Shown piece by piece: positions 1,174-22,869 of a stretch of DNA of 64,000 nt. Within the stretch, counting starts at the first letter, position 1; each line of letters starts with the position of its first letter. Origin of the DNA: Candidatus Calescamantes bacterium (GTDB taxonomy: Bacteria; CAIJMQ01; JAADFP01); the NCBI GenBank assembly GCA_021162785.1, contig JAGGYA010000010.1, positions 1,017 through 65,016 on the forward strand, in the 5' to 3' direction. Position numbers and translations under genes: made by a program. Below the pieces are notes generated by a model that was not told the DNA's origin, did not search any database, and saw only the letters and a list, made by a program, of their open reading frames with translations.

Positions 1174-1447
1174 TAGGTGAAAGCAGGGGTGAAACTCAAG
1201 CTGGAGTAAGGGAGTGTTTTTTTCACCTCAAAGTATTCGGGATTCTTCTATCCAATCAGTTTACTCAGTTGAACCTTCCATGTAAAATATTCGCTCCTAT
1301 ATATGCGGGAGATAAAAATTCTGCGTTCTAAAAGATACGAGGGTGAGCTCTCCATAGAGAATGAGTCCCTCCTTAAATGGAAGGAGGAGCTGTCAGGAAA
1401 TGAACTACCTTAAGGACATCCTTCAATCCCTTGATTGATTCTCTTTG

Positions 1448-1519
1448 CTGCCCGGCGAGGACTCGAACCTCGACGCCTGGCTCCAAAGGCCAGTGTGCTA
1501 CCAATTACACCACCGGGCA
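1448..1519 (-). tRNA. tRNA-Gln (anticodon UUG)
   Basis: 72-nt cloverleaf on the minus strand. 7-bp acceptor tgcccgg/ccgggca, anticodon loop cuUUGga, T-arm gaggttcgagtcctc. No encoded CCA. Confidence 0.8.
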
Positions 1520-1541
1520 ATTCAATTATTATTTTAACATA

Positions 1542-2216
1542 TTACTCTTCCAATTCCGATTTAGCCTTTTGCAGAAGTTCTTTAACCTTAGGCTGATGGG
1601 GGGAGAGTTGAAGAGATTTTTCCCATTCTTTTATTGCCCTCTTCTTTTCGTTCATCGCATAATAGACCATACCTAAATTGTAATGAGTAAAAGGATTCTC
1701 AGGGTTAATTTTCAATGCTTCCTTAAAACATTTTTCTGCCTCTCTATATTGACCAGTGGAATAAAGTAAAGTCCCCAAATTATTATAGGCTAAATCAAAA
1801 TCCGATTTTAACTCGATTGCCTTACGATAAGCCTCTTCAGCTGACTTGGGGAGATTAAGCTCGCTTAATATATTTCCTAAATTATTGTATGCTTCTGCGT
1901 ATTCCGGGTTAAGCTGAATGGCTTTCTCACAAGACTCTCGAGCAAGTTCAAGTTTGCCTAAGTTTTCATAGGCATGCCCCAAATTATTATAGGCCACAGC
2001 AAATTGAGGGTTCAAAGAAACAGCCCTTTTAAAAAATTTAATTGATTTCTTATACTTTCCAATCCTAAGATATAAACGACCTAAATAATTAACAAATTCA
2101 CAGTTCTTTTTAAATTTATGGAGATTTTTCTCTAAAAACCTTATAGCTTCTCTAAACCTTCCTTCTTTCTCTAATCTTTTGACCTCCTCAATCCACTCCA
2201 CCCACCATTTTAACAT
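1542..2216 (-). CDS. TPR-repeat protein
   Basis: 224 aa with repeated ...AxxYNNLGxxYxxxGxxxxAxxxxxKAxxLNP... units (6+ TPRs). Confidence 0.8.
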   Translation of the reverse strand: MLKWWVEWIEEVKRLEKEGRFREAIRFLEKNLHKFKKNCEFVNYLGRLYLRIGKYKKSIKFFKRAVSLNPQFAVAYNNLGHAYENLGKLELARESCEKAIQLNPEYAEAYNNLGNILSELNLPKSAEEAYRKAIELKSDFDLAYNNLGTLLYSTGQYREAEKCFKEALKINPENPFTHYNLGMVYYAMNEKKRAIKEWEKSLQLSPHQPKVKELLQKAKSELEE

Positions 2217-2246
2217 ATGGATTTTTTGTGTTAAAATTTACTACCT

Positions 2247-3353
2247 ATGATTTCATATGAAGACCTGGTTTCCCTTCTCGCTTACTCCAGCAACCAAACC
2301 CAAGTAATTAGTCTTTATTTAAATGTAAAAAGGGAAAGAGTAAACGAAAACCAACATGTTACTGCTTTTAAAGACTTAGTGAAAAAAATCCCTGAAAATA
2401 AAAGAGAGAAAAATAAAGAAATACTGGATAAAATAACCTATTTTCTAAAATACCAATTCCGGCGGGATAACAAAAACGGTTTGGCTTTATTTGCCTCCCC
2501 TTCACCTCCTTTATGGAAAGTTCTTCTCCTCCCGGAAGCAGTTCGGGATCTTTTAGTCATAGAAACCCATCCCTACACTAAACCCCTTTTTGCAGTGGTA
2601 GACCGATATCGAAGATTCGCTGTGGTTCTTTTAGACCAGACCAAAACAAGGATTTTAGAAGTCTTTATGGGAGATATTGAAGAAAAAATCGAGATCAAAA
2701 GCGAAGTCCCTCATGAAGTAAAAACCTCTGGATGGAAAGGATACGGAGAAAGAATTCACAATCACATTTATAACGAAAGATTGAGGCATTTCCATATAGT
2801 TGCCCAAGAAGTAGTCTCGGTTTGGCGGAGGACACATTTTGACTATTTAATTCTTGGGGGTGTAGAAGAAAACTTGGTTCCTTTTATATCCTTCCTCCCT
2901 ACCTTTCTACAAGAAAAAGTAATAGGGAAACTTTCCCTACCAATTAATGCCCCCCTATCCGAGATTATTAAGAAGGCTGTAGAAATGGAGAAAAGGGAGA
3001 AAGAGGTCAGAATACAGAAATTAATTGAACTTATAATGGAAGACAAATCAAGGGAGGGCTTAGCTGCTATAGGTCTTTCATCCGTTCTTAAAGCTTTAAA
3101 TTACTATGCAGTAAGAGAGTTAGTGGTAGAAGAGGGATTCACAGAGCCAGGTTATATTTGCAGAGGATGTGGATTTTTATCTATAGAGAAAGAAATTTGT
3201 CCCTATTGCAGAAAAAAAATGGAATCAAAAGAGGATATAGTGGAAGAAGCTGTAGAAAAAGCTATTGCCCAGGATGCTTTGGTAGAATATGGTAGGGAAG
3301 GTATACTTAAAGATGTAAAAATTTTGGGCCTTTTAAGATTTAAAGTTCCCTAA
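2247..3353 (+). CDS. bacterial eRF1/Pelota-like protein (baeRF-type) with C-terminal zinc ribbon insert
   Basis: 368 aa. The central RFAVVLLDQTKTRILEV block looks like eRF1 domain 2. The C-terminal GLAAIGLSSVLKALNYYAVRELVV block matches the eRF1/Pelota domain-3 motif. It is followed by a CRGCG..(14)..CPYC zinc ribbon. Confidence 0.5.
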   Translation: MISYEDLVSLLAYSSNQTQVISLYLNVKRERVNENQHVTAFKDLVKKIPENKREKNKEILDKITYFLKYQFRRDNKNGLALFASPSPPLWKVLLLPEAVRDLLVIETHPYTKPLFAVVDRYRRFAVVLLDQTKTRILEVFMGDIEEKIEIKSEVPHEVKTSGWKGYGERIHNHIYNERLRHFHIVAQEVVSVWRRTHFDYLILGGVEENLVPFISFLPTFLQEKVIGKLSLPINAPLSEIIKKAVEMEKREKEVRIQKLIELIMEDKSREGLAAIGLSSVLKALNYYAVRELVVEEGFTEPGYICRGCGFLSIEKEICPYCRKKMESKEDIVEEAVEKAIAQDALVEYGREGILKDVKILGLLRFKVP

Positions 3354-4204
3354 TGGTTAATTTTAATTTTTTTGACCTTTTCTGGTTATTTTTTATTTTC
3401 TCCGCTTTGCAACCTCTTCTTAAGCAGAGATTATTAGAAGGAGCGAGAGTCAAATTGATAACCTCCATTGAGAAAAAGAGAAAATCCCGAGTAATAACTC
3501 TTATTCATCGTCAGGAAACTATGAGTCTCCTCGGCTTCCCTATCCTGCGGTATATCGATATAAATGATTCGGAGGAGATATTAAGAGCTATTCGCCTTAC
3601 TCCATCGGATATGCCTATAGATTTTATCCTCCATACCCCTGGAGGGCTGGTACTTGCTTCTCTCCAAATAGCCTTTGCTTTAAAAAAACACCCTGGTAAA
3701 GTAACAGTATTTGTGCCTCACTACGCCATGTCAGGGGGCACCTTTATCGCTCTTGCTGCTGACGAGATAATAATGGATCCCCATGCTGTTCTTGGCCCAG
3801 TAGATCCCCAATTGGGTGAATATCCTGCTGTCTCTATACTTAAAGTTCTGGAAGAAAAAGATAAAAACGAAATTGATGATAGAACCCTTATAATGGCAGA
3901 TATCGCCAAAAAAGCTATTCATCAAGTGGAAGAAGCGGTTTATAAAATCCTTGAAGGCCGATATTCACCGGAAAAAGCTAAGGAACTTGCCCACCTTCTA
4001 TCCTCAGGAAAATGGACACATGATCACCCTATCACCTTTGAAGAAGCAAAAAGCCTGGGACTCCCAGTTAACGAAAACATGCCTGAGGAAATTTATCAAT
4101 TAATGAGCCTTTATCCTCAACCTGTAAGACGACAACCTTCTGTAGAATATATACCTATTCCTTACCGTCCCCATCGTTTACCCCGAAGTAAAGGAGAGAT
4201 TTAG
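3353..4204 (+). CDS. membrane-anchored ClpP-fold serine protease, SDH (Ser-Asp-His) / S49-like family
   Basis: 283 aa. N-terminal TM helix ([18 protein letters not shown]), then a ClpP/crotonase-like core with HTPGGLV...[30 protein letters not shown]. The start ATG overlaps the upstream stop (TAATG). Confidence 0.55.
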
Positions 4205-4206
4205 CC

Positions 4207-4917
4207 ATGCCCAAATTAGGAGTAAATATTGACCATGTAGCCACCTTAAGGGAAGCACGTAAAGTCTCTTATCCTGATCCGGTTCAGGCAGCGGTTATCT
4301 GTGAACAAGCAGGTGCTCATGGTATCGTAGCTCATTTACGCGAAGATCGGCGTCATGTAAAAGAAAGGGATATTTTTCTCCTTAAAGAAATAATTAATAT
4401 AAAATTTAACTTAGAAATGGCTCCCACTCAGGAAATCAGGGAAATAGCTTTAAAACTCAAACCTGACCAAGTTACCCTGGTGCCGGAAAGGAGGCAGGAA
4501 CTCACCACGGAAGGAGGATTGGATGTTGTCTCCTTAAAAGATTTTCTAAAGGAATATATCAAACCTTTTAAAGATGCTGGTATTATCGTCTCCCTTTTCA
4601 TAGACCCTGAAACTTCTCAGATAGAAGCAGCTAAAGAAACAGGCGCTCAAAGTATAGAAATCCATACCGGAGAATATGCAAATCTAAAAGGCTTAGAAAG
4701 AGAAAAAGAACTTGAGAAAATCATTGAGATGAGCGAATTTGCTCATAAACTGGGATTCCATGTCCACGCAGGGCATGGACTCAATTACTGGAATGTAAAA
4801 CCCATAGCTAAAATTCCGGTAATCGAAGAACTTAACATAGGGCATTCCATTATTTCCCGTGCGGTCTATGTGGGGTTGGAAAGAGCAGTTAGAGAAATGC
4901 TCCAGCTAATAAGATGA
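4207..4917 (+). CDS. pdxJ: pyridoxine 5'-phosphate synthase
   Basis: 236 aa. [18 protein letters not shown]...HLREDRRH... and later ...GHGLNY motifs are the PdxJ signature. Confidence 0.9.
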
Positions 4918-6470
4918 AAGTCGTCACTTCTTCCCAAATGCGAGAAATCGACCGAAGAACAATTGAGGGAATAGGCATCCCCTCCTTGGTCCTCATGGAA
5001 AATGCTGGCAGGAAAGTAGCAGAAGCTATACACAAATATTTCCCAGAAGTTAAAAATATAATCCTCCTTTGCGGTCCAGGGAATAATGGGGGAGATGGAC
5101 TGGTATGTGCACGCCATTTAAGACTCCATTATGGGAAAAAGGTTTTAGTTTACTTAGCCAGAAGGGACAGCCTTTCCCCCGATGCAGAAAGAAATCTTAG
5201 AATCCTTGAGAATTTAAATTTCCAAATTTTTGAATGGATGAATCCACCCTCAATTGAAGAAAGCGATCTTTTAGTGGATGCCTTACTTGGGACAGGGATA
5301 AAAGGAAAACCGGAAGGAAAAATTGCAGACATGATTCGGTGGATCAATGCTTCCTCTCTTCCAGTGGTCTCAGTAGATACCCCATCAGGTTTATCTGGAG
5401 ATTTTCCACCCCACCCAGATTACACAGTGAAAGCCTTAATTACAGTAACTATGGCCTTACCCAAAAAGGAACAAGTAGTATTTCCAGGAGCTGAATATGT
5501 GGGGAAATTGATAGTTGCAGACATTGGCTTTCCCCCTCCCCTTTTAGAAAGTGAGGAATGGAAAATAGAAATAATGGAAGGGGAAAAATTAAAGCAGTGG
5601 ATTAAACCACGGAGACCTGATACCCATAAGGGGACATATGGTCATACTTTAATTCTTTCAGGTTCCCAGGGATTCACGGGAGCTCCCCTTTTAACTGCAA
5701 AGGGAGCCCTTCGCTCAGGAGTGGGACTCATAACCTTAGGTATCCCAGAAACAATTTATTCAATTGTGGCAGGAAAAATTCCTGAAATCATACCTTTTCC
5801 TCTCCCTGCAAAGGAAGGGGGGTTTACTCTCAGTGCTTGGCAAAAAATAAAAAATTGGGGCCGAAAAATCACCTCCCTTGTTATAGGACCGGGAATATCC
5901 CTTGCTTCACCAGTAAAAGAATTCGTCAAAAAAGTGATTGAGGAAAACCAACTGCCTATGGTGGTAGACGCAGACGCATTAACTATTATTTCCGAAGACA
6001 CTTCCATACTAAAAAAGGCTAAATCTCCTCTAATCCTAACCCCTCATCCTGGAGAAATGGCCAGATTAATAGGAAAAAGCATTGATTATGTTCTTAATCA
6101 CCGTATAGAAGTTGCCTTATCTTTTGCCAGAGAATTCAATTTAATCTTGATTTTAAAGGGAGCAAGAACAGTGATTGCCACTCCAGAGGAGAAGGTCTTC
6201 ATAAATCCCACCGGAAACCCGGGAATGGCTACTGGTGGAATGGGCGATGTGTTAACCGGACTTATTGGAGGACTTTTGGCTCAAGGTTACACTCCCTTAG
6301 AAAGTGCCCTTATAGGTGTATTTATCCATGGAGCCAGTGGAGATATCCTCTGGGAAGAAAGGAAGACAACTTCTCTAAGTGCTACGGAAGTAGCGGAAAA
6401 TATACCTTTTACCTTTTCCCGCCTAAGGGAAGGGTATCTTGACGAGTTAAATTTTTATGATAAAATTTAA
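4914..6470 (+). CDS. nnr: bifunctional NAD(P)H-hydrate repair enzyme Nnr (YjeF-N epimerase / YjeF-C ADP-dependent dehydratase)
   Basis: 518 aa. N-terminal YjeF_N domain ([11 protein letters not shown]...[11 protein letters not shown]) and C-terminal carbohydrate-kinase-like domain (GPGIS...[16 protein letters not shown]). ATGA overlap with pdxJ. Confidence 0.9.
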
Positions 6471-6479
6471 TGTAAAATT

Positions 6480-6554
6480 GCCGGCGTAGCTCAATGGTAG
6501 AGCGCCTCACTTGTAATGAGGGGGTTGGGGGTTCGAGTCCTCCCGTCGGCTCCA
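6480..6554 (+). tRNA. tRNA-Thr (anticodon UGU)
   Basis: Acceptor gccggcg/cgtcggc, anticodon loop cuUGUaa, T-loop ggttcgagtcc, encoded CCA. Confidence 0.85.
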
Positions 6555-6574
6555 AAGTTTAAAAGATGATAAGA

Positions 6575-6657
6575 GGAGGGGTACCCAAGTGGCCAAAGGG
6601 GGCAGACTGTAAATCTGCTGGCGTAAGCCTTCGGAGGTTCGAATCCTCCCCCCTCCA
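6575..6657 (+). tRNA. tRNA-Tyr (anticodon GUA), long variable arm
   Basis: Acceptor ggagggg/cccctcc, anticodon loop cuGUAaa, long variable arm ctggcgtaagccttcgg, T-arm ggaggttcgaatcctcc. Confidence 0.85.
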
Positions 6658-6658
6658 C

Positions 6659-6733
6659 GCGGGAATAGCTCAATGGTAGAGCATCGGCCTTCCAAGCCGA
6701 GGGTTGCGGGTTCGAGTCCCGTTTCCCGCTCCA
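6659..6733 (+). tRNA. tRNA-Gly (anticodon UCC)
   Basis: GCGGGAATAGCTCAATGGTAGAGC start, anticodon loop cuUCCaa, encoded CCA. Confidence 0.85.
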
Positions 6734-6741
6734 GATTTTTA

Positions 6742-6815
6742 GCCCATGTGGCTCAGGCGGTTAGAGCGCGTCCTTGGTAAGGACGAGGTCGGCGGTTCGA
6801 GTCCGCCCATGGGCT
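6742..6815 (+). tRNA. tRNA-Thr (anticodon GGU)
   Basis: Acceptor gcccatg/catgggc, anticodon loop uuGGUaa, T-arm ggcggttcgagtccgcc. No CCA. Confidence 0.85.
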
Positions 6816-6831
6816 CAAGGAGTAGAAGAAA

Positions 6832-6978
6832 ATGAGAGAGGTAGTTCATCTTGCTTGCACGGAATGTAAGAGGAGGAATTACACTACCACAAAAAGGAAG
6901 GATAAAAGAGAGAAACTCCAGCTCCGGAAGTATTGTAAGTATTGTAGGAAACACACCCTTCACAGGGAAACTAAGTAA
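6832..6978 (+). CDS. rpmG: 50S ribosomal protein L33 (Zn-ribbon C+ form)
   Basis: 48-aa ORF missed by the ORF track: [48 protein letters not shown] with CxxC..CxxC. RBS aggag 8 nt upstream. Canonical position before tRNA-Trp/secE/nusG. Confidence 0.9.
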
Positions 6979-7006
6979 TTTGAATTTTTCCGTTTTGTGG
7001 TATAAT
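6979..7006 (+). promoter_or_regulatory. candidate sigma70-type promoter with extended -10 (TTTGAA/TTGAAT ...15-16 nt... TGgTATAAT) upstream of tRNA-Trp-secE-nusG
   Basis: Sequence tttgaatttttccgttttgtggtataat sits ~20 nt upstream of the tRNA-Trp 5' end. Confidence 0.4.
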
Positions 7007-7026
7007 TAAATGGGAGGTATTTTTGT

Positions 7027-7101
7027 AGGCCTGTAGCTCCAACTGGATAGAGCGCCGGACTCCAAATCCGGTGGTTGGGGGTTCGAATCCTCCCAGGCCT
7101 G
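7027..7101 (+). tRNA. tRNA-Trp (anticodon CCA)
   Basis: Acceptor aggcctg/caggcct, anticodon loop cuCCAaa, T-arm ggttcgaatcc. Confidence 0.85.
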
Positions 7102-7121
7102 CAATTTTTTTAGGTTTAATT

Positions 7122-9927: not shown

Positions 9928-9942
9928 AAAGGAGGGGTTAAA

Positions 9943-12900
9943 ATGCCAAGGCCGGTGGAAGTAAGAGATTTCACAAAAATTCCAAGTGTAATGGATCTTC
10001 CACCTTTAATAGATGTGCCTCGTGAATCTTACGAAAGGTTCTTTCAAAAGGATGTCCCGCATGAGAAAAGGGCGCCGGTTGGACTTAAAAAAGTTTTGGA
10101 TGAAATCTTTCCTATAGAAGGGAAAAATGGGAAAATTGAACTTCATCTTTTAAGTTATGAAGTAGAAGACCCCCCAACCACGGAAGAAGAATGCGTAAGA
10201 AAGGGGATAACTTATGCGGTTAAAGTAGCCTTAAATACCCGACTCTACATTTACAAAACCACAAAAAAGAAGGAAATATCCTCAATTCGAGAAGAACGGG
10301 TTTATCTTGGAGAATTTCCTTTAATGACTGAAAGAGGCACCTTTATCATAAATGGTGTGGAAAGAGTTGTAGTTTCACAGCTTCATCGTTCCCCTGGAAT
10401 TATATTCGAATCACTCGGGACAGTAAGAGGTAAAGAACTTTTCTCTGCACGTATAATACCTGATCGAGGTATTTGGCTGGAATTCACAACTGATACCTCT
10501 GATCTTATTTATGTCAGCATAGGTCGTCGAAGAAAAATGTTAGTTACTACTTTCCTAAGAGCCATAGGTTTCACCAGAGATAGTGATATAATCCGTGCAT
10601 TCTATAGTGTAGAAAATGTAGACATAACTAAGAAAGGAGCTCCTCAAAAAGTCCTGGGGAAAAGGTTAGCAGAAGATGTTTTGGATCCTGATAGTGGAGA
10701 AGTTCTCTTGGAATCCAAAAATGAAATAACCTTAGAACATCTCAAAATCTTCAGCATAAAAGGGGTTAAAAAAGTAAAGATAATAAAGGAAACCGCTCCC
10801 GAAGATTTAATGGTTCTCAACACATTAATAAAAGATGACCACAAAACAGAGGAAGGAGCTCTTTCCTTCGTCTACTCACGACTCCGGCCCGGGAATCCTT
10901 TTGAACCAGAGACTGCACGAGCTTATCTTTACAACTCCCTCTTTGATAAAGACAGATTTGACCTCTCGCGTATAGGGAGATATAGACTCAACCGCAGATT
11001 AGGATTGAATGTCCCATTAGAAGAAACCAGTTTAAGAATCCAAGACATTCTTGTAACCATTAAAGAGCTCATAAAAATTGCTAAAGGTGAGTCTGAGGTA
11101 GATGATGTGGACCATCTTGGAAATAGAAGAGTAAGAAGAGTTGGTGATTTAATGGAAAATCAAACCCGAGTAGCCCTTTTAAGAATGGCAAGAATGGCTC
11201 AGGAAAGAATGCTACTCGAAGATGAAGACGAACTCATGCCCCACGACTTAGTAAATCCCAGAATCATCAATACTACTCTTCATGAATTCTTTGCAAGGAG
11301 TCAGCTCTCCCAATTCCTTGATCAAACAAATCCTCTTTCTGAATTAACCCACAAAAGGAGATTAAGCTGTCTGGGGCCAGAGGGGCTTAGTAGAGAAAGA
11401 GCAGGTATAGAAGTTAGAGATGTTCATCCTACACATTATGGAAGAATATGTCCCATTGAGACTCCAGAAGGTCAGAACATAGGTTTAATAACCTCTTTAG
11501 CCACCTACGCTCGGGTTAATGAACTGGGACTCCTGGTTACCCCTTACCGCAAAGTAGAAAACGGTAGAGTTACCAACAAGATTGAATGGCTGGCAGCTGA
11601 TGAAGAAGACAATTTTGTGATAGCTCAAGCAAATGCTCCTGTTGACGAGGAAGGGAGATTTATAAATCCGGAGGTAATGGTTAGATTCAAAGGAGACTTC
11701 ATGCGTGTTCCTCCGGAAAAAGTGGATTATATGGATGTAACCCCTGTTCAGACGGTAAGTGTATCTTCCTCTCTAATCCCCTTCTTGGAACACGATGATT
11801 CTAACCGTGCTCTCATGGGTTCAAATATGCAGAGGCAAGCAGTCCCTCTACTCTTTACCGAACCACCTTTAATTCAGACAGGAATGGAGGGTAGAGCTGC
11901 CCGAGATTCCGGTGCAGTAGTTGTTTGCAAAGCAGATGGTGTAGTAATCGAAGTTAATTCTGAACTTATAGTGGTAAAACGAGATGATAGTGACAAATTA
12001 GGAGATTTTGATTATTATCCTTTGAAAAAATTTGCCCGAACAAATCAATCCACCTGTTTCCATCATCGTCCCAAGGTTAAGAAAGGGGATCGAGTGAAGA
12101 AAGGAGATGTCTTGGCAGATGGTCCCGCTACTCGAGACGGTAAACTTGCTTTAGGAAAAAATGTATTGGTTGCTTTCATGCCTTGGGAAGGGTATAACTT
12201 TGAAGATGCCATACTTATAAGCGAAAAACTGGTAAAAGAGGATGTTTATACCTCTGTCCACATAGAAGAATTTGAGATTGAATGTCGAGAAACCAAGCTC
12301 GGTAAAGAGGAAATTACCCGTGACCTCCCCAATGTTAGTGAAGAAGAACTTGCAGACCTGGATGAAGATGGAATTATAAGAATAGGTGCCTATGTAAAAC
12401 CCGGGGATATCCTGGTCGGGAAAGTTACCCCTAAGGGAGAAACAGTAACAACTTCGGAGGAAAAACTTCTCCGGGCCATTTTCGGTGAAAAAGCCAGTGA
12501 AGTTGTCAATAAATCTTTACGTGTCCCTCCCGGTGTAAGGGGTATTGTTATTGATGTAAAGGTCTATTCCCGCGAAAAAGAAGACATCGAGAAAGAGAAA
12601 AAGAATTCTCCCGAAGTTCAAATAATGAAAAGAAAATACCAAACTTTACGACGCTGTGTAGAAGAAGAAAGAGAAGAAATATTGAAATCCCTTCTCTTAG
12701 GTAAGAAGCTTTCCAAACCCCTCAAATCAAAGAAAAAAACCATTCTGGAGGCAGGAACAGTAATTACTGAAGAAATCTGGGAAAAGATAAAAGGAAGGAA
12801 CCTAAAAGAATTGAAAATTGGACAGCCACAGATAGAGTCTAAAATTGAGGCAATCGAAGAAGAATTTGCAGAAAAGATCAAAGAATTAAAAGAAAAAGAG

Positions 12901-15900
12901 GAGAACGAAATAAAAAGACTCATTGAAATTGAAGAGCTTCCTCCTGGAGTGATCAAAAAAGTGAAAGTTTATGTAGCCTCCAAAAGAAAAATTCAGGAAG
13001 GAGACAAACTATCTGGAAGACATGGGAATAAAGGAGTGGTGGCCCGTGTACTTCCAGAAGAAGATATGCCTTACCTCCCCGATGGTAGACCTGTAGAAAT
13101 AGTTTTAAACCCACTTGGTGTTCCCTCCCGCATGAACCTTGGGCAATTATTGGAAACTCACTTAGGATGGGCAGCAAAGGTCTTAGGCTGTGAAGTTATC
13201 ACCCCTGTATTCAATGGAGCTAAAGAAGAAGAAGTTTGGGAAATGCTTAAAGAAGCTGGCCTCCCTGAAGATGGAAAAACCATTGTTTATGATGGAAGAA
13301 CAGGCGAACCTTTCCATTCCCCAGTAGTGGTTGGATACATTTATATGATGAAACTTATCCATATGGTAGAGGACAAAATACACGCTCGAGCCACTGGACC
13401 TTACTCCCTTATTACACAGCAGCCCTTAGGTGGAAAGGCTCAATTTGGTGGCCAGAGATTTGGAGAAATGGAGGTATGGGCACTGGAAGCATATGGAGCA
13501 GCTTACACTCTTCAAGAAATGCTTACCGTAAAAAGTGACGATATCGAGGGAAGAAGCAGAATTTATGAAGCCATTGTGAAAGGTGAAAATACACTTATCC
13601 CTGGAACTCCAGAATCCTTCAATGTGCTGGTAAAAGAACTTCAGGGACTCTGTATAGATGTAAAAATTGAAAAAGCCAGACCTTCCTTAGATGAGAAAGG
13701 ATTGATTACACCAGAAAAAGGGAGGACTGAGGTAAGGAGTGTTACCTTAGGAATTGCTTCCCCACAACTCATAAGGTCGTGGTCTTACGGAGAAGTAAAG
13801 AAACCGGAAACCCTAAATTACCGAACCCTTAAACCCGAAAGAGACGGTCTCTTCTGTGAAAAAATCTTTGGGCCCACCCGAGATTGGGAGTGTTACTGCG
13901 GAAAGTATAAGAGAATTAAACATAAAGGTGTAATTTGTGAACGCTGTGGAGTAGAGGTTACTCAATCTAAAGTGAGAAGAGAAAGAATGGGGCATATAAA
14001 TCTGGTAACACCCGTAGCTCATATCTGGTTCTTCAAAGTAGTTCCTTCCGTAATGGGGACTCTTCTAAACATAACCCTGCCAAACCTTGAACGGGTTATC
14101 TACTATGACGCCTGGATTGTAATCGATCCGGGGAATACTCCATTGGAGAAGTGCCAGGTCTTAAGAGAACAAGAATACCAGGAAGCAAGAGAGAAATACG
14201 GTGATGCTTTCCGGGCAGGGATGGGTGCCCCTGCACTGAGAGAAATACTGCAGGAACTTGACTTAGATAAACTTGCAGAAGAACTAAGACAGCAAGAAAA
14301 AATGACCAAATCACGACAGCAGAAATGGAGAATTAACCGCAGACTCAAACTTGTAGAGGCTTTCAGAAAATCTGGCCAGAGACCTGAATGGATGATACTG
14401 GAAGTTATACCAGTAATTCCACCTAATCTCCGTCCTCTTGTGCCACTGGACAAAGGTGGTTTTGCCACCTCAGACCTAAACGACCTTTACCGCAGACTCA
14501 TCAACAGAAACAACCGTCTTAAGAAACTCATGGAAATGGGTGCTCCCGAAATCATACTCAGAAACGAAAAAAGAATGCTTCAGGAAGCAGTGGATGCTCT
14601 CTTTGATAACAGCCGTAAAGCCAGACCCGTAGTTGACCAGAACGGAAGGCCACTTAAATCCTTAGCAGATACTTTAGCAGGTAAACAAGGTAGGTTCCGA
14701 CAGAATCTCCTTGGTAAAAGAGTGGATTATTCTGGAAGATCAGTCATTGTAGTAGACCCCAAACTCAAACTTTATCAGTGTGGTTTACCAAAAGTAATGG
14801 CATTAGAACTCTTCCAGCCCTTCATTATAAGAAACTTGCGGGAGAAAGGGTATGTCCATACAATTCGTTCGGGTAAGAAACTAATTGAAAAAGGGACACC
14901 TGAAGTCTGGGAAGCATTAGAAGAAGTAATCAAGGGACACTTAGTTCTGCTTAACCGTGCACCTACCCTCCACCGTATAAGTATTCAAGCATTCCAGCCA
15001 GTTCTTCATGAATCCAAGACAATTCGAATACACCCCTTAGTCTGCCCTGCTTACAACGCAGACTTTGATGGAGACACAATGAGTGTATTTGTCCCTCTTT
15101 CTTTAGAATCCTTACTTGAAGCACGGTTACTCATGTTATCTTCCCACAACTTATTTGCACCAGCTGATGGCCGTCCAATAGTCACTCCTACTCAGGATAT
15201 TGTTCTGGGAGTATATTACCTCACCTTAATGGATCCCAAAAAGAAACCGGAGAAGAAGTTCTACTTCCCGGGTGAGGCTATTCAAGCTTATGAACTGGGG
15301 TATGTTAAACTTAACGATCCTATTTATCTATACAAAGGTGGAGAATTTATAGTTACTACACCCGGTAGATTAATCTTCAATTCTCTCTTACCCGAAGGAA
15401 TTCCCTTTGTTAATGAAGAAATAACCAAAAGTAAATTAGCTTCCTTAATCACCACCATTATAAATAAGAAAGGTAAAGATAGAATTGTGGAATTCTTAGA
15501 TGAACTGAAAGAACATGGTTTCCACTATGCAACTATTGGTGGTATTTCAATGGGTATGGCAGATGTTAAAGTGCCACCCAAAAAGTGGGATATCATAGAA
15601 GAAGCAAGAAAAGAAGCAGAAAAGATTGAAGAAGACTATCGCAAAGGAATAATTACCATGGGAGAACGATATAATCAGATTGTTGACCTCTGGACCAGAG
15701 TCTCCGATGAAATAGCTGATCTTATGCTTCAAGAACTCTCCAGTGATCCTTTCAACCCTGTTTACATGATGATGGCCTCTGAAGCAAGAGGAAGTGCACA
15801 ACAGATTCGGCAACTTGGTGGTATGCGAGGTTTAATCGCCAGACCGAGAAAGAAACTGGTAGGTGCAGTAGGTGAAATCATAGAGACACCAATTCTCACC

Positions 15901-17730
15901 AACTTCCGTGAAGGGCTGACTGTGCTGGAATACTTCATCTCCACTCATGGTGGAAGAAAAGGATTAGCCGATACCGCCTTAAAAACTGCTGAAGCTGGAT
16001 ATCTCACACGCAGACTTGTAGATGTGGCTCAGGATATCGTGGTAAGGGAAGAAGATTGTGGAACATTAAATGGAATTATTATGCGAGCACTGGAAATCGG
16101 AGGGAAAGTAATAATACCTCTCCGTGAAAGAATTGCCGGTAGAATAGCGCTGGAAGACATTCGTATTCCTTCATTGGGAGATGTAATAGTTAAGGCTGGT
16201 GAAGAAATCACTCCTGAGAAAGCTGAAATCATTGAGGAAGCAGGAGTAGAAGAAGTTCCTATTAGGTCTGTGCTCACCTGTGAAAACCGGATGGGTGTAT
16301 GTCAAAAATGCTACGGTAGAGATTTAGCCACTGGTGAAATGGTAGAAGTAGGACAAGCAGTAGGAATAATGGCTGCTCAAGCTATAGGTGAACCAGGCAC
16401 TCAGCTCACTTTAAGAACTTTCCACATTGGTGGAATGGCTACCCGAATTGTGGGAGAAAGCCAGTATCAAGCAATGAAGGGAGGTAGGGTTAAATTTGTT
16501 AACCTTAAAGCCATTGAGAAAAATGGCCAGAAATTGGTCCTTAACCGAAATGGTTGGATAATACTCTTGGATGAAGAAGGTAAAGAAGTGGAGAAATTCA
16601 AGATCCCTGTAGGGGCAATTATTAAAGTAGAGGAAGGAGTAGAAGTTAAGTCTGGGGAAGTTCTTGTAGAATGGGATCCTTATGTCAGACCTTTCCTCTC
16701 TGAGATTGATGGTAAAGTGGAATTTGAAGAAATCATACCTGACATTACAGTAAAGGAAGAAATAAATAGAGAGACTGGCCTTAAAGAAATGGTAATTATT
16801 GAACATCGTCCACAATTTCAGCCAGCCATAAGAGTCAAAAATGAAAAAACTGGAGAAGAAAGAATCTATCCCCTCCCCATAAATACCCATATTGTTGTAG
16901 AAAATGGTGCGGAAGTAAAAGCAGGGGATATGCTGGCAAAAACCATGAGGGAAGTAGTAAAAGCTACGGATATTACGGGTGGTTTACCTCGAGTTTCCGA
17001 ACTCTTTGAGGCAAGAAAACCGAAAGATCCTGCAGTAGTCACAGAGATCGATGGTGTGGTTAAGAAGATTGTAAGAGAAGAAAAAGAAAGGAAGATAATA
17101 ATTGAGGCGGATGATGGTGAAATAAGAGAATATAGAGTTCCACCTGGTAAACATATTGAAGTAGATGTGGGTGACCGGGTAGAAGCAGGGCAGAAACTCA
17201 CCGATGGTCCAGTAGTCCTTCAGGAAATCCTCAGAATTGAAGGTGAAAGAAGACTTCAGTACCATCTTCTCAATGAAATTCAGGAAGTTTACCGACTACA
17301 AGGAGTAAAGATTAACGATAAACATATAGAACTTATCATCCGTCAGATGCTGAAGAAAGTTCAGATTGAAGATCCAGGAGACACCAATTTCCTGTGGGGT
17401 GAACAAGTAGACAAATTCAAGTTCCAGGAAGAAAACGAAAGAGTAATTCGTGAAGGAGGAAGACCTGCTCAGGCACGACCTCTGGTTCTGGGTATCACTA
17501 AAGCTTCCCTTTCTTCAAGTAGTTTCATTGCTGCAGCTTCTTTCCAGGAAACCAGCAGAGTATTAACTCGTGCAGCGGTATATGCGCAAAGAGATGAATT
17601 GAAAGGGATTAAGGAGAATGTTATAATAGGCAACCTTATTCCTGCAGGAACGGGTTGGAGACAGTATAGAGAAGTGGAGGTTGTGAAAAGTGCCGACCTT
17701 GAATCAACTGGTACGGAAGGGCAGACATAA
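9943..17730 (+). CDS. rpoBC: fused DNA-directed RNA polymerase beta-beta' subunit (RpoB::RpoC single polypeptide, 2595 aa)
   Basis: One uninterrupted ORF. Residues ~1-1245 are RpoB (ends ...[21 protein letters not shown]). After a ~20-aa linker, canonical RpoC begins ([48 protein letters not shown]...NADFDGD...) and runs to the end. Confidence 0.9.
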
Positions 17731-18061
17731 ACCCACTTATAAATCAAAGAGCCCTGCTCTTAAAAAAGCTCCTCAACGGAGGGGAGTTTGTACTCGTGTA
17801 TATACTGTCACTCCTAAGAAACCTAACTCTGCTTTAAGAAAAGTTGCCCGAGTGAGACTCTCCACTGGTATTGAGATAACAGCTTATATTCCAGGTGAAG
17901 GACACAATCTGCAGGAACACTCACTCGTTTTGGTTAGAGGTGGAAGAGTTAAGGATTTACCCGGTGTTAGATACCATATCATCCGGGGAACCCTTGATGC
18001 TTCGGGTGTAGAGGGAAGGAAAAAGTCTCGTTCAAAATACGGGACAAGAGCAGAATCTTAA
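17690..18061 (+). CDS. rpsL: 30S ribosomal protein S12
   Basis: 123 aa; [12 protein letters not shown]...[16 protein letters not shown]. Start overlaps the rpoBC 3' end by 41 nt. Confidence 0.95.
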
Positions 18062-18077
18062 AACCTGGAGAGAAAAA

Positions 18078-18548
18078 ATGCGAAGAAGGAGAGCACCCAA
18101 GAGGGAAATTTTACCCGACCCAAAGTTCGGTAGCACGCTGGTAGCTAAGTTCATCAACAAGCTTATGTGGGATGGAAAAAAGAGCAAAGCTCAAAAAATC
18201 TTCTATGAAGCCTTGGATATCATCTCCCAGAGAATCAAAAATGAAGATCCTTTAGAAGTCTTCAAACAAGCCATCAACAATGTAAGGCCAATCCTGGAAG
18301 TGAGACCACGCCGAGTGGGAGGCGCCACCTATCAAATCCCAATGGAAGTAAGACCCGAACGTAGCATATCCTTGGCCATGAAATGGATAATTGAATTTGC
18401 TCGAGGAAGAAAAGGCGCCCCTATGTCTGAAAGATTAGCTCAAGAAATTATAGACGCCTATCGTGGTGAAGGGGCTTCCATAAAGAAGAAAGAAGACACC
18501 CATAAAATGGCGGAAGCAAACCGAGCCTTTGCTCATTACAGATGGTAA
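18078..18548 (+). CDS. rpsG: 30S ribosomal protein S7
   Basis: 156 aa; typical S7 sequence, ends ...AFAHYRW. Confidence 0.95.
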
Positions 18549-18580
18549 CACTTAATTCCACCCTTCTGGAAGAGGTAAAG

Positions 18581-20650
18581 ATGAAGGATATTTATCCACT
18601 GGAACTTATAAGAAATATTGGAATAATGGCACATATTGATGCAGGGAAGACCACCACCACCGAAAGAATACTTTTCTATACTGGGAAAATATATCGGATG
18701 GGGGAAGTCCATGAAGGAACTGCTACTATGGATTGGATGGATCAAGAAAAAGAGAGAGGAGTAACTATAACCGCTGCAGCAACCACCTGTTTTTGGAAAG
18801 AACACCGGATAAATATCATTGATACACCCGGCCATGTGGACTTTACTGCGGAAGTGGAAAGATCCTTACGTGTCTTAGACGGAGCAATTGCTATCTTCTG
18901 TGGAGTAGGTGGAGTAGAACCCCAATCAGAAACTGTCTGGCATCAAGCAGATAAATACCAAGTGCCACGCATTGCTTTTATAAATAAAATGGATAGAGTT
19001 GGAGCAGATTACTTTGCCACCATTGATGAAATGAAAGAAAAATTGGATGCTCAACCTTTAGTCCTTCAACTCCCACTTGGGGAAGGGGAGAATTTTCGTG
19101 GAATGATTGATTTGGTGAGAATGAAAGCAATTTTATATGAGAAAGATGAACTTGGCCAAGAATTTGAAGTGAGAGAACTTACTCCTGAGGAGAGAAGAGA
19201 AGCGGAAAAATGGCAGGAAAAATTGATAGAGCAATTGGGAGAAATAGAAGAAGAAATACTGGAAAAGTATTTGGAGGGTGAAGAAATAAGCCCTGAATTA
19301 ATGGAAAAAGCCATTAGAAAAGCCACTTTGGAAAAATTTTGGGTGCCGGTTCTTTGTGGTTCAGCCCTAAAAAATAAAGGTATCCAACCTTTATTAGATG
19401 CTATTGTCAAATTTCTCCCTTCCCCTATGGATATCCCTCCCATTAAAGGCATCCATCCCAAAACAGGAGAAGAAATTGAGAGAAAACCTTCCGTATCTGC
19501 ACCTTTTTCAGCATTAGCATTTAAGATTTCTACAGACCCTTTTGTGGGTAGACTTACTTATGCAAGAATTTATTCAGGAAAGATTAAACCGGGTGAAAAA
19601 GTCTTCAACGCCACCCGTGGCAAAGAAGAGAGAATTTCTAAAATTCTTTTACTTCACGCCAACAAAAAAGAAGAACGAAGGCAAGGGCATGCAGGAGAAA
19701 TTGTTGGATTAATTGGATTAAAAGAAACATTTACTGGGGACACCTTATGTGACCGCTCCCATCCCATAATCTTGGAGAAACCCAGATTTCCAGAACCTGT
19801 GGTCTCTCTGGCTATTGAACCAAGAAACAAAGATGAAGCAGAAAAGCTTACTGTAGCTTTAAGAAAATTGGAAGAAGAAGACCCAACATTCAAAGTAAAG
19901 TATGATCCTGAAACCGGGCAAACACTCCTCTCAGGGATGGGTGAACTCCATCTGGAAGTATTAGCTACAAGGCTAATCCGTGAATTCAAGGTTCAGGCAC
20001 GCTTAGGGAAACCTCAAGTCTCCTACCGGGAAGCAATTAGAAAGGAAGTTGTTCAGGAAGGGAAGTTTATTCGCCAAACAGGTGGAAGAGGCCACTATGG
20101 TCATGTAGTCTTAAAATTAGAACCTTCCGAAGATAAAGAATTTGAATTTATAAACGAAATAAAGGGAGGAGTAATACCTTCCCAGTATATCCCAGCTGTG
20201 GAAAAAGGGGTTAAAGAAGCCCTTGAAACAGGAGTCCTTGCAGGATATCCAGTAATAAGGATTAAAGTTCATCTAATTGATGGTTCTTATCACGAAGTAG
20301 ATTCTTCAGATTTGGCATTTTATACGGCAGCAAGTATTGCAGTAAGAGAAGGATTAAAAAAAGCTGAACCCTATTTACTCGAACCTATTATGCGGTTAGA
20401 AGTGGTGATCCCAGAAGAGTATTTAGGCCAAGTCTTAGGGGATTTAAATGCAAGAAATGGAGAAATTGAGGAAATAAAACATCGAGGAAAAACCACTATC
20501 ATTATTGCATATGTCCCCTTGAGAGAAATGTTTGGTTATGCTACAATCCTTCGCTCCCTCACCCAAGGACGAGGGAGTTATGTAATGGAATTCTCCAAAT
20601 TTATGGAGGTTCCAGAGGAATTGGCTAAGAAATTAATGGAAGAATATTAG
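18581..20650 (+). CDS. fusA: elongation factor G
   Basis: Likely start at [28 protein letters not shown] (RBS ggaagaggt upstream). G1-G5 motifs and EF-G domains II-V. The ORF-track start at 18542 is a 13-aa N-terminal over-extension. Confidence 0.95.
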
Positions 20651-20668
20651 TAAGGGAGGTGAAGGAAA

Positions 20669-21868
20669 ATGCCAAAGGAAAAGTTCGAAAGGAAGAAACC
20701 CCACCTTAATGTGGGAACCATTGGTCATGTTGACCATGGGAAGAGTACCCTTACCAGTGCCATAACCATGGTTCTTTCCAAGAAGGGATGGGCAGAATTC
20801 AAATCATTGGATGAAATAGATAAAGCACCAGAGGAAAAAGAAAGAGGTCTTACAATTCAAATAGCACATATTGAGTACGAGACAGAGAAAAGGCACTATG
20901 CTCACATTGACTGTCCAGGTCACGCAGATTACATCAAGAACATGATTACTGGTGCTGCCCAAATGGATGGAGCAATACTGGTGGTGAGTGCAGCTGATGG
21001 GCCAATGCCTCAAACCAGAGAACATATACTACTTTCCCGCCAGGTAAATGTCCCCGCGATGGTTGTTTTCCTGAACAAAATAGATCAAGTAGATGACGAG
21101 GAACTCTTAGAATTAGTAGAACTGGAAGTTCGTGAACTCCTCTCCAAGTATGAGTATCCAGGAGACGATATTCCAGTTATAAAGGGTAGTGCACTACAGG
21201 CACTGGAATGCGGGTGTGGAAAAGAAGAGTGTGAAAAATGTGGCAGAATTTGGGAACTCTTAAAAGCAGTAGATGAGTATATCCCTGAACCAGTTAGAGA
21301 AGTGGATAAACCTTTCCTTTTAGCAATTGAAGACATCTTCTCCATAACTGGAAGAGGAACTGTGGTAACAGGAAGAGTAGAAAGAGGGAGAATAAGACCT
21401 GGTGATGAAGTAGAAATAGTAGGACTTGGGGATACCAGAAAGACAGTAGCCACCTCTCTGGAAATGTTCCGGAAAGAACTGGATGAAGCAGTAGCTGGCG
21501 ACAATATTGGTATCCTTCTGAGAGGTATTGGAAAAGACGAGGTAGAAAGAGGAATGGTAGTAGCTGCTCCTGGTTCCATAACTCCTCACACCACTTTCAA
21601 AGCACAGGTTTATGTTCTTACCAAGGAAGAAGGTGGTAGACACACACCTTTCTTCAGCGGATATAAACCTCAGTTCTACATGAGAACCACTGATGTAACG
21701 GGCACGATAAAACTACCTGAAGGGGTAGAGATGGTAATGCCTGGTGATAACATTGAAATGGAAGTTGAACTGATAAAGCCTGTAGCAATAGAACCTGGGT
21801 TGCGGTTTGCTATCAGAGAGGGTGGTAAGACCGTTGGAGCAGGTGTGGTAACAGAAATAATTAAATAA
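20669..21868 (+). CDS. tuf: elongation factor Tu
   Basis: 399 aa; [23 protein letters not shown] motifs. Unusual Cys-rich insert [18 protein letters not shown]. Confidence 0.95.
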
Positions 21869-21925
21869 AATAACACCCTTAAATTACAAAAATTAGGGCA
21901 AAAGGAGGAAGGGGAGAGATTAATA

Positions 21926-22240
21926 ATGGCTGGAGAACAGCAAAAAATCAGGGTGAGACTTAAGGCTTATGACCACAGGATTCTTGATGCCTCCTGTCGG
22001 GAAATCATTCAAACTGCAGAAAGAACTGGTGCAAAGACGGTAGGGCCTATTCCCCTCCCTACAAAGATAGAAAGGTATACTGTCCCTCGCTCTCCCCATA
22101 TTGACAAGAGATCCATGGAAACTTTTGAAATAAAGACTCATAAAAGACTTCTGGAAATAATCGATCCCACACCCAAAACCATAGATGCTTTAATGAGGTT
22201 GAGCCTACCTGCTGGTGTCCATGTTGAAATAAAACTCTAA
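21926..22240 (+). CDS. rpsJ: 30S ribosomal protein S10
   Basis: 104 aa; [16 protein letters not shown]...RSPHIDKRS. Confidence 0.95.
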
Positions 22241-22242
22241 AA

Positions 22243-22869
22243 ATGGTGGGTCTAATAGGGAAAAAATTGGGTATGACACAAATATTTGGAGAGGAAGGGA
22301 GAGTTATTCCTGTGACGGTTATAAAAGCAGGCCCCTGTGTAGTTGTCCAGAAAAAAACCGAGGAAAAAGATGGATACTCTGCACTCCAATTGGGATTTGA
22401 AGAGATAAAAGAAAAAAAAGTAACTAAGCCACTTCTGGGACATTTCAGAAAACATGGAGTAAAACCTCAAAGAATCCTTCGAGAATTCCGTTGGGAAAAC
22501 TTGGATGAAGTGAAAGAAGGCGATGTGATCAAGGTGGATATTTTGGAAGGGTATAAATATGTGGATGTAGAAGGGATATCCAAAGGTAAAGGATTTCAAG
22601 GCGTTGTTAAAAGATGGGGATTTGGTGGTGGGCCAGCTTCTCATGGAACAAAACAATGGCATAGAAGACCTGGAGCAATAGGAGCCCATAGCTGGCCAGG
22701 AAGAGTATGGAAAGGTAAGAAGATGCCTGGGAGAACTGGTGGAGAAAGAGTAACGGTAAAGAATCTGGAAATTGTGGAAATAAGAAAGGACAGTAATCTC
22801 CTTTTAGTAAAGGGTGCGGTTCCTGGCCATAATGGAAGTTATGTAATTATAAAGAACCCTAAGAAATAG
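22243..22869 (+). CDS. rplC: 50S ribosomal protein L3
   Basis: 208 aa; [13 protein letters not shown]..., conserved order. Confidence 0.95.

What the first reader, a model, noticed from the sequence alone, without database searches (positions are those of the whole stretch)
9943..17730. In-frame rpoB-rpoC gene fusion (2595-aa beta::beta' polypeptide)
RpoB sequence runs to ...[21 protein letters not shown] at ~nt 13680. After a ~20-aa linker ([19 protein letters not shown]) the canonical RpoC N-terminus starts ([42 protein letters not shown]) with no stop codon or frameshift. Fused beta-beta' is known from only a few lineages (e.g. Helicobacter, Wolbachia). Here it occurs in a thermophile-like genome with otherwise standard rplKAJL-rpoBC-rpsL synteny. 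The rpsL start also overlaps the fused gene's 3' end by 41 nt.
Basis: seen in the sequence. Interest (0 to 1): 0.6.

Follow-up and report, generated by a model that had tools for sequence, protein, structure and literature searches.

The report
Natural rpoB–rpoC gene fusion, lineage-wide
The two largest subunits of the bacterial RNA polymerase are encoded here as one 2595-residue protein; the fusion is real and shared by all the closest uncultivated relatives, so it is a further, independently evolved case of a known oddity and not a new kind of system.

Summary
Window 9943..17730 (+) is one ORF of 2595 codons with no stop or frameshift. It holds a complete RpoB (aa 1-1244), a ~20-aa linker and a complete RpoC (aa 1265-2595). 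The rpsL GTG start at 17690 overlaps its end by 41 nt.

It is not an artefact. A separately assembled metagenome scaffold (99.6% identical) has the same junction. Every closer homolog found (81, 78 and 63-66% identity) is fused, and four were checked at DNA level in the same secE-nusG-rplKAJL-rpoBC-rpsL-rpsG-fusA context.

In NJ trees the window sits in an all-fused clade of 9 (100% bootstrap), 12 (98%) and 19 (82%) sequences. These carry Calescamantes/'Caldiserica', Omnitrophota and Ratteibacteria labels. The clade is separate from the Helicobacter and Wolbachia fusions.

Typical Omnitrophota have unfused genes that abut (TGA-A-ATG) or overlap (ATGA), so one small indel could fuse them. The linker is about as long as the old β tail plus the β' leader. 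It evolves fast and is predicted disordered.

Most likely it yields a single-chain, tethered β::β' core subunit, as in Helicobacter. Expression as one polypeptide is inferred, not shown.

Verdict: new member of a known kind, of moderate interest.

The parts
9930..9935 (+). Shine-Dalgarno AGGAGG, with a 7-nt spacer to the ATG of the fused gene. rplL ends at 9927, so only 15 nt separate the two genes.
9943..17730 (+). Fused rpoB::rpoC ORF, 2595 aa plus stop.
9943..13674 (+). β (RpoB) part, aa 1-1244, all Rpb2 domains. It includes a K/E-rich lineage insertion of about 130 aa (roughly aa 880-1010) inside Rpb2 domain 6.
   Evidence: TIGR02013 over aa 6-1242
13675..13734 (+). Linker [20 protein letters not shown] (aa 1245-1264): the former β C-terminal tail plus the β' N-terminal leader. 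It is only 40% identical to the ortholog P0121, against 91-93% in the flanks. It is predicted disordered.
13720..13725 (+). GGGAGG inside the linker, followed after 6 nt by GTA, which is not a start codon. It may be a relic of the old rpoC ribosome-binding site. No usable in-frame start follows it.
   Evidence: inference
13735..17727 (+). β' (RpoC) part, aa 1265-2595, all Rpb1 domains. It has a zinc motif at 13891..13947 and the catalytic NADFDGD at 15055..15075. An insertion of about 270 aa lies in the trigger-loop region (Rpb1 domain 5 spans aa 1991-2524).
   Evidence: TIGR02386 over aa 1267-2577
17690..18061 (+). rpsL (S12), GTG start, GGAGG at 17676. It overlaps the 3' end of the fused gene by 41 nt. 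The overlap is kept in relatives: L081 47 nt, L086 41 nt, L085 14 nt.

Best explanation
This is a genuine, evolutionarily fixed in-frame fusion of rpoB and rpoC. The gene is translated from the single strong ribosome-binding site at 9930 into one polypeptide of about 290 kDa. In it the complete β subunit is tethered to the complete β' subunit by a flexible linker of about 20 residues. In bacterial RNA polymerase the β C-terminus and the β' N-terminus lie close together. That they can be joined without loss of activity was shown for E. coli and H. pylori (Severinov 1997 and Zakharova 1998, cited in PMC1750930). The tether should therefore leave the enzyme unchanged. It enforces 1:1 stoichiometry and makes β-β' association intramolecular, which should help assembly and stability, plausibly at high temperature. 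The fusion most likely arose when a small indel removed the rpoB stop at an abutting or overlapping stop/start junction of the kind still seen in unfused Omnitrophota. The linker is what remains of the β tail and the β' leader. It arose independently of the Helicobacter/Wolinella and Wolbachia fusions and is shared by the window's whole clade. Shown here: ORF continuity, complete domains, conservation in orthologs, separate phylogenetic origin, and the junction geometry in unfused relatives. Inferred: expression as one chain, function of the tether, and the mutational path.
For: The ORF has no stop, both halves are complete and the catalytic motifs are intact. A separately assembled scaffold, L082 (ENA ERZ23499525), is 99.6% identical over 11.5 kb. 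It differs by 19 mismatches, a 10-N gap and a 23-nt indel elsewhere, and its junction is identical. All closest full-length homologs are fused, with lengths of 2595-2655 aa at 81, 78 and 63-66% identity. Four of them have zero in-frame TAA/TAG/TGA at DNA level and the same gene neighbourhood. When the RpoC part alone is the query, no unfused β' is closer than 63%. NJ trees place the window in all-fused clades of 9 (100%), 12 (98%) and 19 (82%). Wolbachia groups with unfused Alphaproteobacteria (96%) and Helicobacter forms its own clade. The scores lie below the cutoffs of both fused-type NCBIfam equivalogs. Unfused Omnitrophota have TGA-A-ATG (L088) or an ATGA overlap (L089), and their β tail plus β' leader sum to about 26 aa, against a 20-aa linker here. 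Linker length is kept at 20, 20 and 21 aa in the three closest sequences, while linker sequence is 40% identical against 91-93% in the flanks. The AF2 model of aa 1001-1640 gives pLDDT below 50 and no secondary structure for aa 1248-1262, between two confident strands. No credible internal start exists: the only in-frame start-like codon in the linker is TTG 13702, with no spaced SD. Literature: fused E. coli β-β' assembles into active enzyme and H. pylori makes a fused chain (PMC1750930). Splitting it sensitises H. pylori to urea (PMC3927596, citing Dailidiene 2007).
Against: There are no protein-level or transcript-level data for this organism, so a single 290-kDa chain is inferred by analogy. 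The AF2 model is of modest quality (mean pLDDT 64, a fragment out of context), so 'disordered linker' is only weakly supported. The trees are NJ on sampled sequences (50 bootstraps), and the sampling of fused and unfused forms came from differently biased searches. Whether L082 comes from a truly independent sample relative to the window's source is unknown. A benefit for stability or thermal tolerance is speculative: many thermophiles have separate genes, and many fused relatives are labelled as ordinary-temperature Omnitrophota.
Confidence: 0.9

Rival explanations
1. Assembly or sequencing artefact: a collapsed stop codon or a 1-2 nt indel error at an abutting rpoB/rpoC junction falsely merges two genes.
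For: In unfused relatives the genes are separated by one base or overlap by four, so a single-base error could create a false fusion. Some singleton 'fused' database proteins may be such errors.
Against: A different assembly has an identical junction. Orthologs with very different DNA (about 72% nucleotide identity to L081) keep the frame and nearly the same linker length. Every sequence in the window's clade is fused.
Confidence: 0.02
2. The ORF is continuous, but the cell still makes separate subunits. This could happen by internal translation initiation near the old rpoC ribosome-binding site (GGGAGG at 13720) or by proteolytic cleavage of the linker.
For: An SD-like GGGAGG lies in the linker. 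The linker is predicted exposed and disordered, so a protease could reach it. In database clusters the same DNA is sometimes annotated as a separate β' with an internal start (Ca. Magnetobacterium).
Against: No ATG or GTG follows the GGGAGG in frame: the codon at the expected spacing is GTA. The only start-like codon is TTG 13702, which has no spacer to its purine run. SD-like motifs and start codons are not conserved in L081 or L086. No intein or protease domain was found. In Helicobacter the fused chain itself is the enzyme subunit (PMC1750930).
Confidence: 0.06
3. The fused gene was acquired by horizontal transfer from a lineage already known to have it (Helicobacteraceae or Wolbachia), rather than arising in this lineage.
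For: The architecture is the same, and the whole-protein search retrieves Helicobacter and Wolbachia fused proteins.
Against: Identity to them is only 44-50%, against 58-63% to unfused Omnitrophota β'. The trees separate the groups, with Wolbachia grouping with unfused Alphaproteobacteria at 96%. Scores are far below the NF007172 and NF011417 cutoffs. The local synteny is native.
Confidence: 0.01

Closest known systems
Helicobacter/Wolinella fused rpoB-rpoC (β::β' of about 2890 aa; Zakharova 1998 and 1999, cited in PMC1750930 and PMC1557499; NCBIfam NF007172)
   Same: It is a single ORF with β then β', complete domains, a short non-conserved tether (about 20-25 aa by my split) and the same position in the rplKAJL-rpoBC-rpsL cluster. 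Related unfused lineages have overlapping or abutting genes, as the title of Zakharova 1999 indicates for Campylobacter and as seen here for Omnitrophota.
   Different: Identity is only 44-48%. The window protein scores 2782 bits against a cutoff of 5372. It is about 290 aa shorter because the lineage insertions differ. It forms a separate clade in the trees. The host is an uncultivated, apparently thermophilic bacterium rather than an epsilonproteobacterium.
Wolbachia fused β/β' (NCBIfam NF011417)
   Same: It has the same architecture and also arose on its own within a phylum whose other members have separate genes.
   Different: Identity is about 50% over 57% of the length. The window protein scores 2638 bits against a cutoff of 4632. 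Wolbachia groups with unfused Alphaproteobacteria at 96% bootstrap.
Engineered tethered E. coli β-β' (Severinov et al. 1997, cited in PMC1750930)
   Same: It shows that joining the β C-terminus to the β' N-terminus is compatible with assembly and activity. That is the mechanistic basis for reading this gene as functional.
   Different: It is artificial and was not fixed by evolution.
Unannotated or mislabelled fused RpoBC of uncultivated lineages in public databases (NOZ64685.1 'Caldiserica bacterium'; MBU0534540.1 and MBN1871690.1 'Candidatus Omnitrophica'; MFA5645091.1 'Candidatus Ratteibacteria'; WP_200873705.1 Ca. Magnetobacterium casensis)
   Same: The first four belong to the same broad group as the window protein (55-81% identity), with the same architecture and synteny.
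   Different: Most are named 'subunit beta' or 'subunit beta'', although JGI labels some 'beta-beta''. I found no paper that describes them. The Omnitrophota survey PMC10066038 does not contain the words RNA polymerase, rpoB, rpoC, fused or fusion. Ca. Magnetobacterium (Nitrospirota) lies outside the window's clade.

Membership tests
Naturally fused β::β' RNA polymerase subunit (RpoBC architecture) | One uninterrupted ORF spans rpoB and rpoC, with no stop or frameshift. | tested here: met
   The same holds in L081, L085, L086 and L087.
Naturally fused β::β' RNA polymerase subunit (RpoBC architecture) | A complete β comes first and a complete β' follows, with intact catalytic and zinc motifs. 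| tested here: met
   (TIGR02013 over aa 6-1242; TIGR02386 over aa 1267-2577; NADFDGD at 1705-1711; CYCG..CERC at 1317-1335)
Naturally fused β::β' RNA polymerase subunit (RpoBC architecture) | The fusion is fixed in the lineage, that is, conserved in orthologs rather than a one-off. | tested here: met
   all-fused clades of 9, 12 and 19 sequences with 100, 98 and 82% bootstrap.
Naturally fused β::β' RNA polymerase subunit (RpoBC architecture) | The product exists in the cell as a single polypeptide of about 290 kDa that assembles into active core enzyme. | not testable with these tools
   This needs proteomics, a western blot or purification. It is inferred from Helicobacter and E. coli work cited in PMC1750930.
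NCBIfam NF007172 (PRK09603, Helicobacter-type β/β' equivalog) | Whole-protein score at or above the curated cutoff of 5372 bits. | tested here: not met
   2782 bits
NCBIfam NF011417 (PRK14844, Wolbachia-type β/β' equivalog) | Whole-protein score at or above the curated cutoff of 4632 bits. | tested here: not met
   2637.7 bits
Bacterial RpoB (TIGR02013) and RpoC (TIGR02386) | Scores above the equivalog cutoffs for each half. | tested here: met
   1744.6 bits against 801.15, and 1712.8 bits against 963.5

The most novel reading that the evidence does not exclude
The fusion may be an ancient rare genomic change that unites the window's thermophilic lineage (labelled Calescamantes or 'Caldiserica'), one branch of 'Omnitrophota' and the Ratteibacteria. 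Separate gains or losses would then be scattered through the rest of Omnitrophota and at least five other phyla. On this reading β-β' tethering is a recurrent, selectable state of bacterial RNA polymerase, perhaps favoured where assembly or stability is limiting (high temperature, very small cells), rather than a curiosity of two host-associated genera.
Probability: 0.4. Interest if true: 0.5.

Novelty: new member of a known kind. Interest (0 to 1): 0.33.

Why it matters
The finding bears on four things.

- **Spread of the fusion.** It adds a free-living, apparently thermophilic lineage to the organisms whose RNA polymerase catalytic core is a single chain. With its relatives, it shows that the fusion is much more widespread than the Helicobacter and Wolinella cases named in the papers I could search.
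- **Phylogenetic marker.** The fused state could serve as a rare-genomic-change marker for relationships among Omnitrophota-like candidate phyla.
- **Annotation and marker-gene pipelines.** These treat rpoB and rpoC as separate genes, and fused forms are currently labelled 'beta' or 'beta'' more or less arbitrarily.
- **Structural work.** A naturally tethered, probably thermostable β::β' could be a convenient source for recombinant expression and structure determination.

It does not reveal a new mechanism.

Tried and rejected
- **Genome scan with the junction protein.** It returned 80 unrelated genomes at no more than 63% identity and none of the window's relatives. The loci still served as an outgroup set. 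All 80 happened to have rpoB and rpoC in the same frame, which is a selection bias of the search. Only L061 (Paceibacterota) and L066 (Helicobacter muridarum) were fused.
- **Junction-only protein search.** It returned short, mostly singleton fragments that span the junction, including obvious oddities labelled E. coli, Lupinus and Golovinomyces. It was not informative about lineage.
- **Exact look-up of the 2595-aa protein.** The protein is not on record.
- **Search of 50%-identity representatives with the RpoC part.** The window's own cluster is represented by a fragment (P0289). Of the 150 best representatives, 11 were fused and 135 unfused. That sampling is too coarse to resolve the clade.
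- **Exact 36-nt junction in JGI metagenome contigs.** No match.
- **PDB search.** No naturally fused chain appeared among the best 60 hits, so no structural template for a natural linker was found.
- **Internal start for β'.** Considered and rejected. There is no ATG or GTG, and no SD-like sequence at a workable distance from a start-like codon.
- **Alternative genetic code.** Considered and rejected. The conserved Trp residues in the linkers of P0123-P0128 could have been read-through TGA, but the DNA of L085 shows TGG and no in-frame TGA.
- **Rfam on the window.** It found only tRNAs, with no leader or attenuator near the gene.
- **Zakharova 1999 (PMC93870).** The paper is not held, so it is cited only through PMC1557499.
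Full report

Yes. The ORF list gives one ORF at 9943..17730 on the + strand, 2595 aa. Its translation shows no internal stop. The junction DNA was read codon by codon. It gives ...[49 protein letters not shown]... in one frame, while the other two frames are full of stops.

Pfam finds Rpb2 domains 1, 2, 3, 45, 6 and 7, followed by Rpb1 domains 1 to 5. NCBIfam matches the rpoB equivalog TIGR02013 over aa 6-1242 and the rpoC equivalog TIGR02386 over aa 1267-2577, both far above their cutoffs. The catalytic NADFDGD and the β' zinc motif are present. The start codon has a strong AGGAGG seven bases upstream, and only 15 nt separate it from rplL.

The rpsL ORF begins at GTG 17690 and gives the canonical S12 N-terminus. 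It overlaps the fused gene by 41 nt. Pfam confirms the neighbourhood rpmG-secE-nusG-rplKAJL-rpoBC-rpsL-rpsG-fusA-tuf-rpsJ. Amino-acid composition fits a thermophile: the IVYWREL fraction is 0.454, a rough optimal-growth estimate of about 90 C.

**2. Is it an artefact?**

No. An exact look-up of the window's S12 protein retrieved the ENA scaffold L082. That scaffold aligns to window 10941..22435 at 99.6% identity. It differs by 19 substitutions, a 10-N scaffold gap at 12349-12359 and a 23-nt indel in tuf, so it is a different assembly, and its junction is identical.

A whole-protein search found that the closest homologs are all single proteins of 2595-2655 aa. They lie at 81% (P0121, NCBI NOZ64685.1, labelled 'Caldiserica bacterium'), at 78% (P0122) and at 63-66% (P0123-P0128, Omnitrophica/Omnitrophota labels). 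Dozens more follow at 55-58%.

I fetched the DNA for four of them (L081, L085, L086, L087). Each has zero in-frame TAA, TAG or TGA. The tryptophans in some linkers are TGG, so alternative-code read-through is excluded. Each has the same gene order, and three of the four keep an rpsL overlap. L081 is only about 72% identical to the window at nucleotide level, yet it keeps the frame and a 20-aa linker.

**3. How far does the fusion extend, and is it related to the known fusions?**

With the RpoC part alone as query, the only hits closer than 63% are fragments of fused genes and one N-terminally truncated fragment, P0289, whose junction state cannot be read (85% identity, labelled 'Candidatus Calescamantes'). 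Below that come more than 100 unfused β' proteins of 1323-1415 aa from Omnitrophota, at 58-63%. Typical Omnitrophota therefore have separate genes.

Two NJ trees were built: concatenated β+β' (110 taxa, 2146 columns) and β' alone (98 taxa, 1313 columns), each with 50 bootstraps.

| Clade containing the window | Bootstrap, β+β' | Bootstrap, β' alone | Unfused members |
|---|---|---|---|
| Window + P0121 + P0122 | 100% | 100% | none |
| plus P0123-P0128 (9 sequences) | 100% | 100% | none |
| plus P0132, P0134, P0138 (12 sequences) | 98% | 88% | none |
| plus the P0159-P0171 group, one member's cluster labelled Ratteibacteria (19 in β+β', 18 in β' alone) | 82% | 58% | none |

The main Omnitrophota clade (100%) is mostly unfused, with a few fused sequences nested inside it: P0133, P0136/P0140, P0148 and P0151/P0152.

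Other fusions sit elsewhere in the tree.
- Wolbachia groups with unfused Alphaproteobacteria (96%).
- Helicobacter forms its own clade.
- P0174 lies inside Burkholderiales (100%).
- P0154 lies inside Verrucomicrobia (100%).
- An Acidobacteriota group (P0164-P0176) is sister to an unfused Thermoanaerobaculia sequence (100%).
- Ca. Magnetobacterium (Nitrospirota) lies outside the window's clade.
- The Paceibacterota MAG L061 is sister to an unfused Saccharibacteria sequence (90%).

The window protein also scores far below the cutoffs of both fused-type NCBIfam equivalogs. The fusion here is therefore independent of the two known cases, and rpoB-rpoC fusion has happened repeatedly. These are NJ trees on biased samples. 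They are good enough to separate the groups but not to count events.

**4. How did it arise, and what is the linker?**

In two unfused Omnitrophota loci the genes are tightly coupled. L088 reads ...KEKRKV-TGA-A-ATG-MAKGTILKEKTKLREEGSLLFDAITIKIAS, with a one-base spacer. L089 has an ATGA overlap. Deleting one base of the TGA in L088 would join the frames.

The β tail after the last conserved strand (6 aa) plus the β' leader before the conserved '...I.IASP' strand (20 aa) sum to 26 aa. That is close to the 20-25 aa linkers of the window's clade. The linker is thus best read as the two former termini (inference).

Linker length ranges from 5 to 85 aa across fused proteins, and its sequence is poorly conserved. 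Between the window and P0121 the linker is 40% identical, against 91-93% in the 100 residues on either side.

An AlphaFold2 model of aa 1001-1640, built with 45 fused homologs as the alignment, is only moderate overall (mean pLDDT 64). It gives pLDDT below 50 and no secondary structure for aa 1248-1262, between two modelled strands. A GGGAGG at 13720 may be a relic of the old rpoC ribosome-binding site, but it is followed by GTA, not a start codon. The only in-frame start-like codon in the linker, TTG 13702, has no usable spacing. Such motifs are not conserved in relatives.

**5. How it most likely works.**

The gene is translated from one start into a single β::β' chain. The tether links two termini that must lie close enough together in the assembled core to be joined. 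Established work supports this, here cited through papers I could read. [quoted passage not shown] The fusion is shared by Helicobacter and Wolinella (PMC1557499, PMC9696931). Splitting the H. pylori gene leaves cells sensitive to urea (PMC3927596, citing Dailidiene 2007).

By analogy, the tether guarantees equal amounts of the two subunits and turns a bimolecular assembly step into an intramolecular one. That may stabilise the enzyme under denaturing conditions such as high temperature. This last step is inference. It is weakened by the many thermophiles with separate genes, and by fused relatives with no sign of thermophily.

**6. Comparison with what is known, and novelty.**

The architecture is that of the Helicobacter/Wolinella and Wolbachia RpoBC. 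Membership of those two specific equivalog families was tested and not met. Membership of the general architecture is met on every sequence-level criterion, while the protein-level criterion cannot be tested here.

Searches of the held literature found no description of fused rpoBC in Omnitrophota, Calescamantes, Ratteibacteria or Ca. Magnetobacterium. The sequences are nevertheless already public, some of them labelled 'beta-beta'' by JGI. The finding is therefore a new member of a known kind: real, tidy and of moderate interest. The broader pattern, a large all-fused clade plus repeated independent fusions, is the more interesting lead.

Noticed in passing
window 17599-17627 (+): A strong sigma-70-like promoter match (TTGAAA, 17 nt, TATAAT, with an extended -10 TG; 11 of 12) lies inside the 3' end of the rpoC part. 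It ends 63 nt upstream of the rpsL GTG start and could be an internal promoter for the rpsL-rpsG-fusA-tuf genes.
   Followed up: no
window 2247-4204 (+): A gene for a bacterial archaeo-eukaryotic release-factor-like protein (baeRF_family10, PF18854) is followed by an SDH-type ClpP-like serine protease (PF01972). The stop of the first and the start of the second share a base. This may be a functional pair.
   Followed up: no
window 37551-38421 (+): This is a nucleotidyltransferase (Polbeta/MNT) plus HepT (HEPN ribonuclease) toxin-antitoxin-type gene pair. The two ORFs overlap by 11 nt.
   Followed up: no
window 6480-7102 (+): A tRNA cluster (Thr(TGT), Tyr, Gly(TCC), Thr(GGT), then rpmG at 6832-6978, then Trp) precedes secE-nusG. 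It is the classic arrangement, but no tuf copy follows tRNA-Thr(GGT).
   Followed up: partly
window about 12580-12970 (β aa about 880-1010) and about 16660-17500 (β' aa about 2240-2520): Two lineage-specific insertions were seen. One is a K/E-rich insert of about 130 aa inside Rpb2 domain 6. The other is an insert of about 270 aa in the β' trigger-loop region; this region also gives weak apocytochrome-f-C and Peptidase_M23 Pfam hits in the window protein.
   Followed up: no
proteins P0123-P0128; L085 linker region: In the sister group of fused proteins the 25-aa linker carries a conserved [ND]-W-x-W-L-x-K motif encoded by TGG codons. In that group the tether may not be a purely passive spacer.
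   Followed up: partly
L061 (DATJQA010000074.1, Candidatus Paceibacterota MAG), ORF 162-7014: A compact 2284-aa fused rpoBC occurs in a CPR bacterium. In the NJ tree it is sister to an unfused Saccharibacteria sequence. It may be another independent fusion or an assembly error.
   Followed up: partly
database clusters of P0156 (Ca. Magnetobacterium casensis) and P0164 (Bryobacterales/Acidobacteriia-labelled): The same 90%-identity clusters hold both fused proteins (2710 and 2937 aa) and separate β' entries (about 1400-1450 aa). Annotation of these fusions is inconsistent, and the names ('subunit beta', 'subunit beta'') hide them.
   Followed up: partly
window 21830-21852 versus L082 10889: The near-identical scaffold L082 lacks 23 nt near the 3' end of tuf, so its EF-Tu is called at 390 aa instead of 399 aa. 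This is a strain difference or an assembly error in one of the two.
   Followed up: no
L001-L080: In many of the unrelated genomes retrieved, rpoC follows rpoB in the same frame with only the stop codon between the two stop-to-stop ORFs. This set was selected by a same-frame search bias. Even so, it shows that a single stop-codon substitution would fuse the genes in many bacteria.
   Followed up: partly
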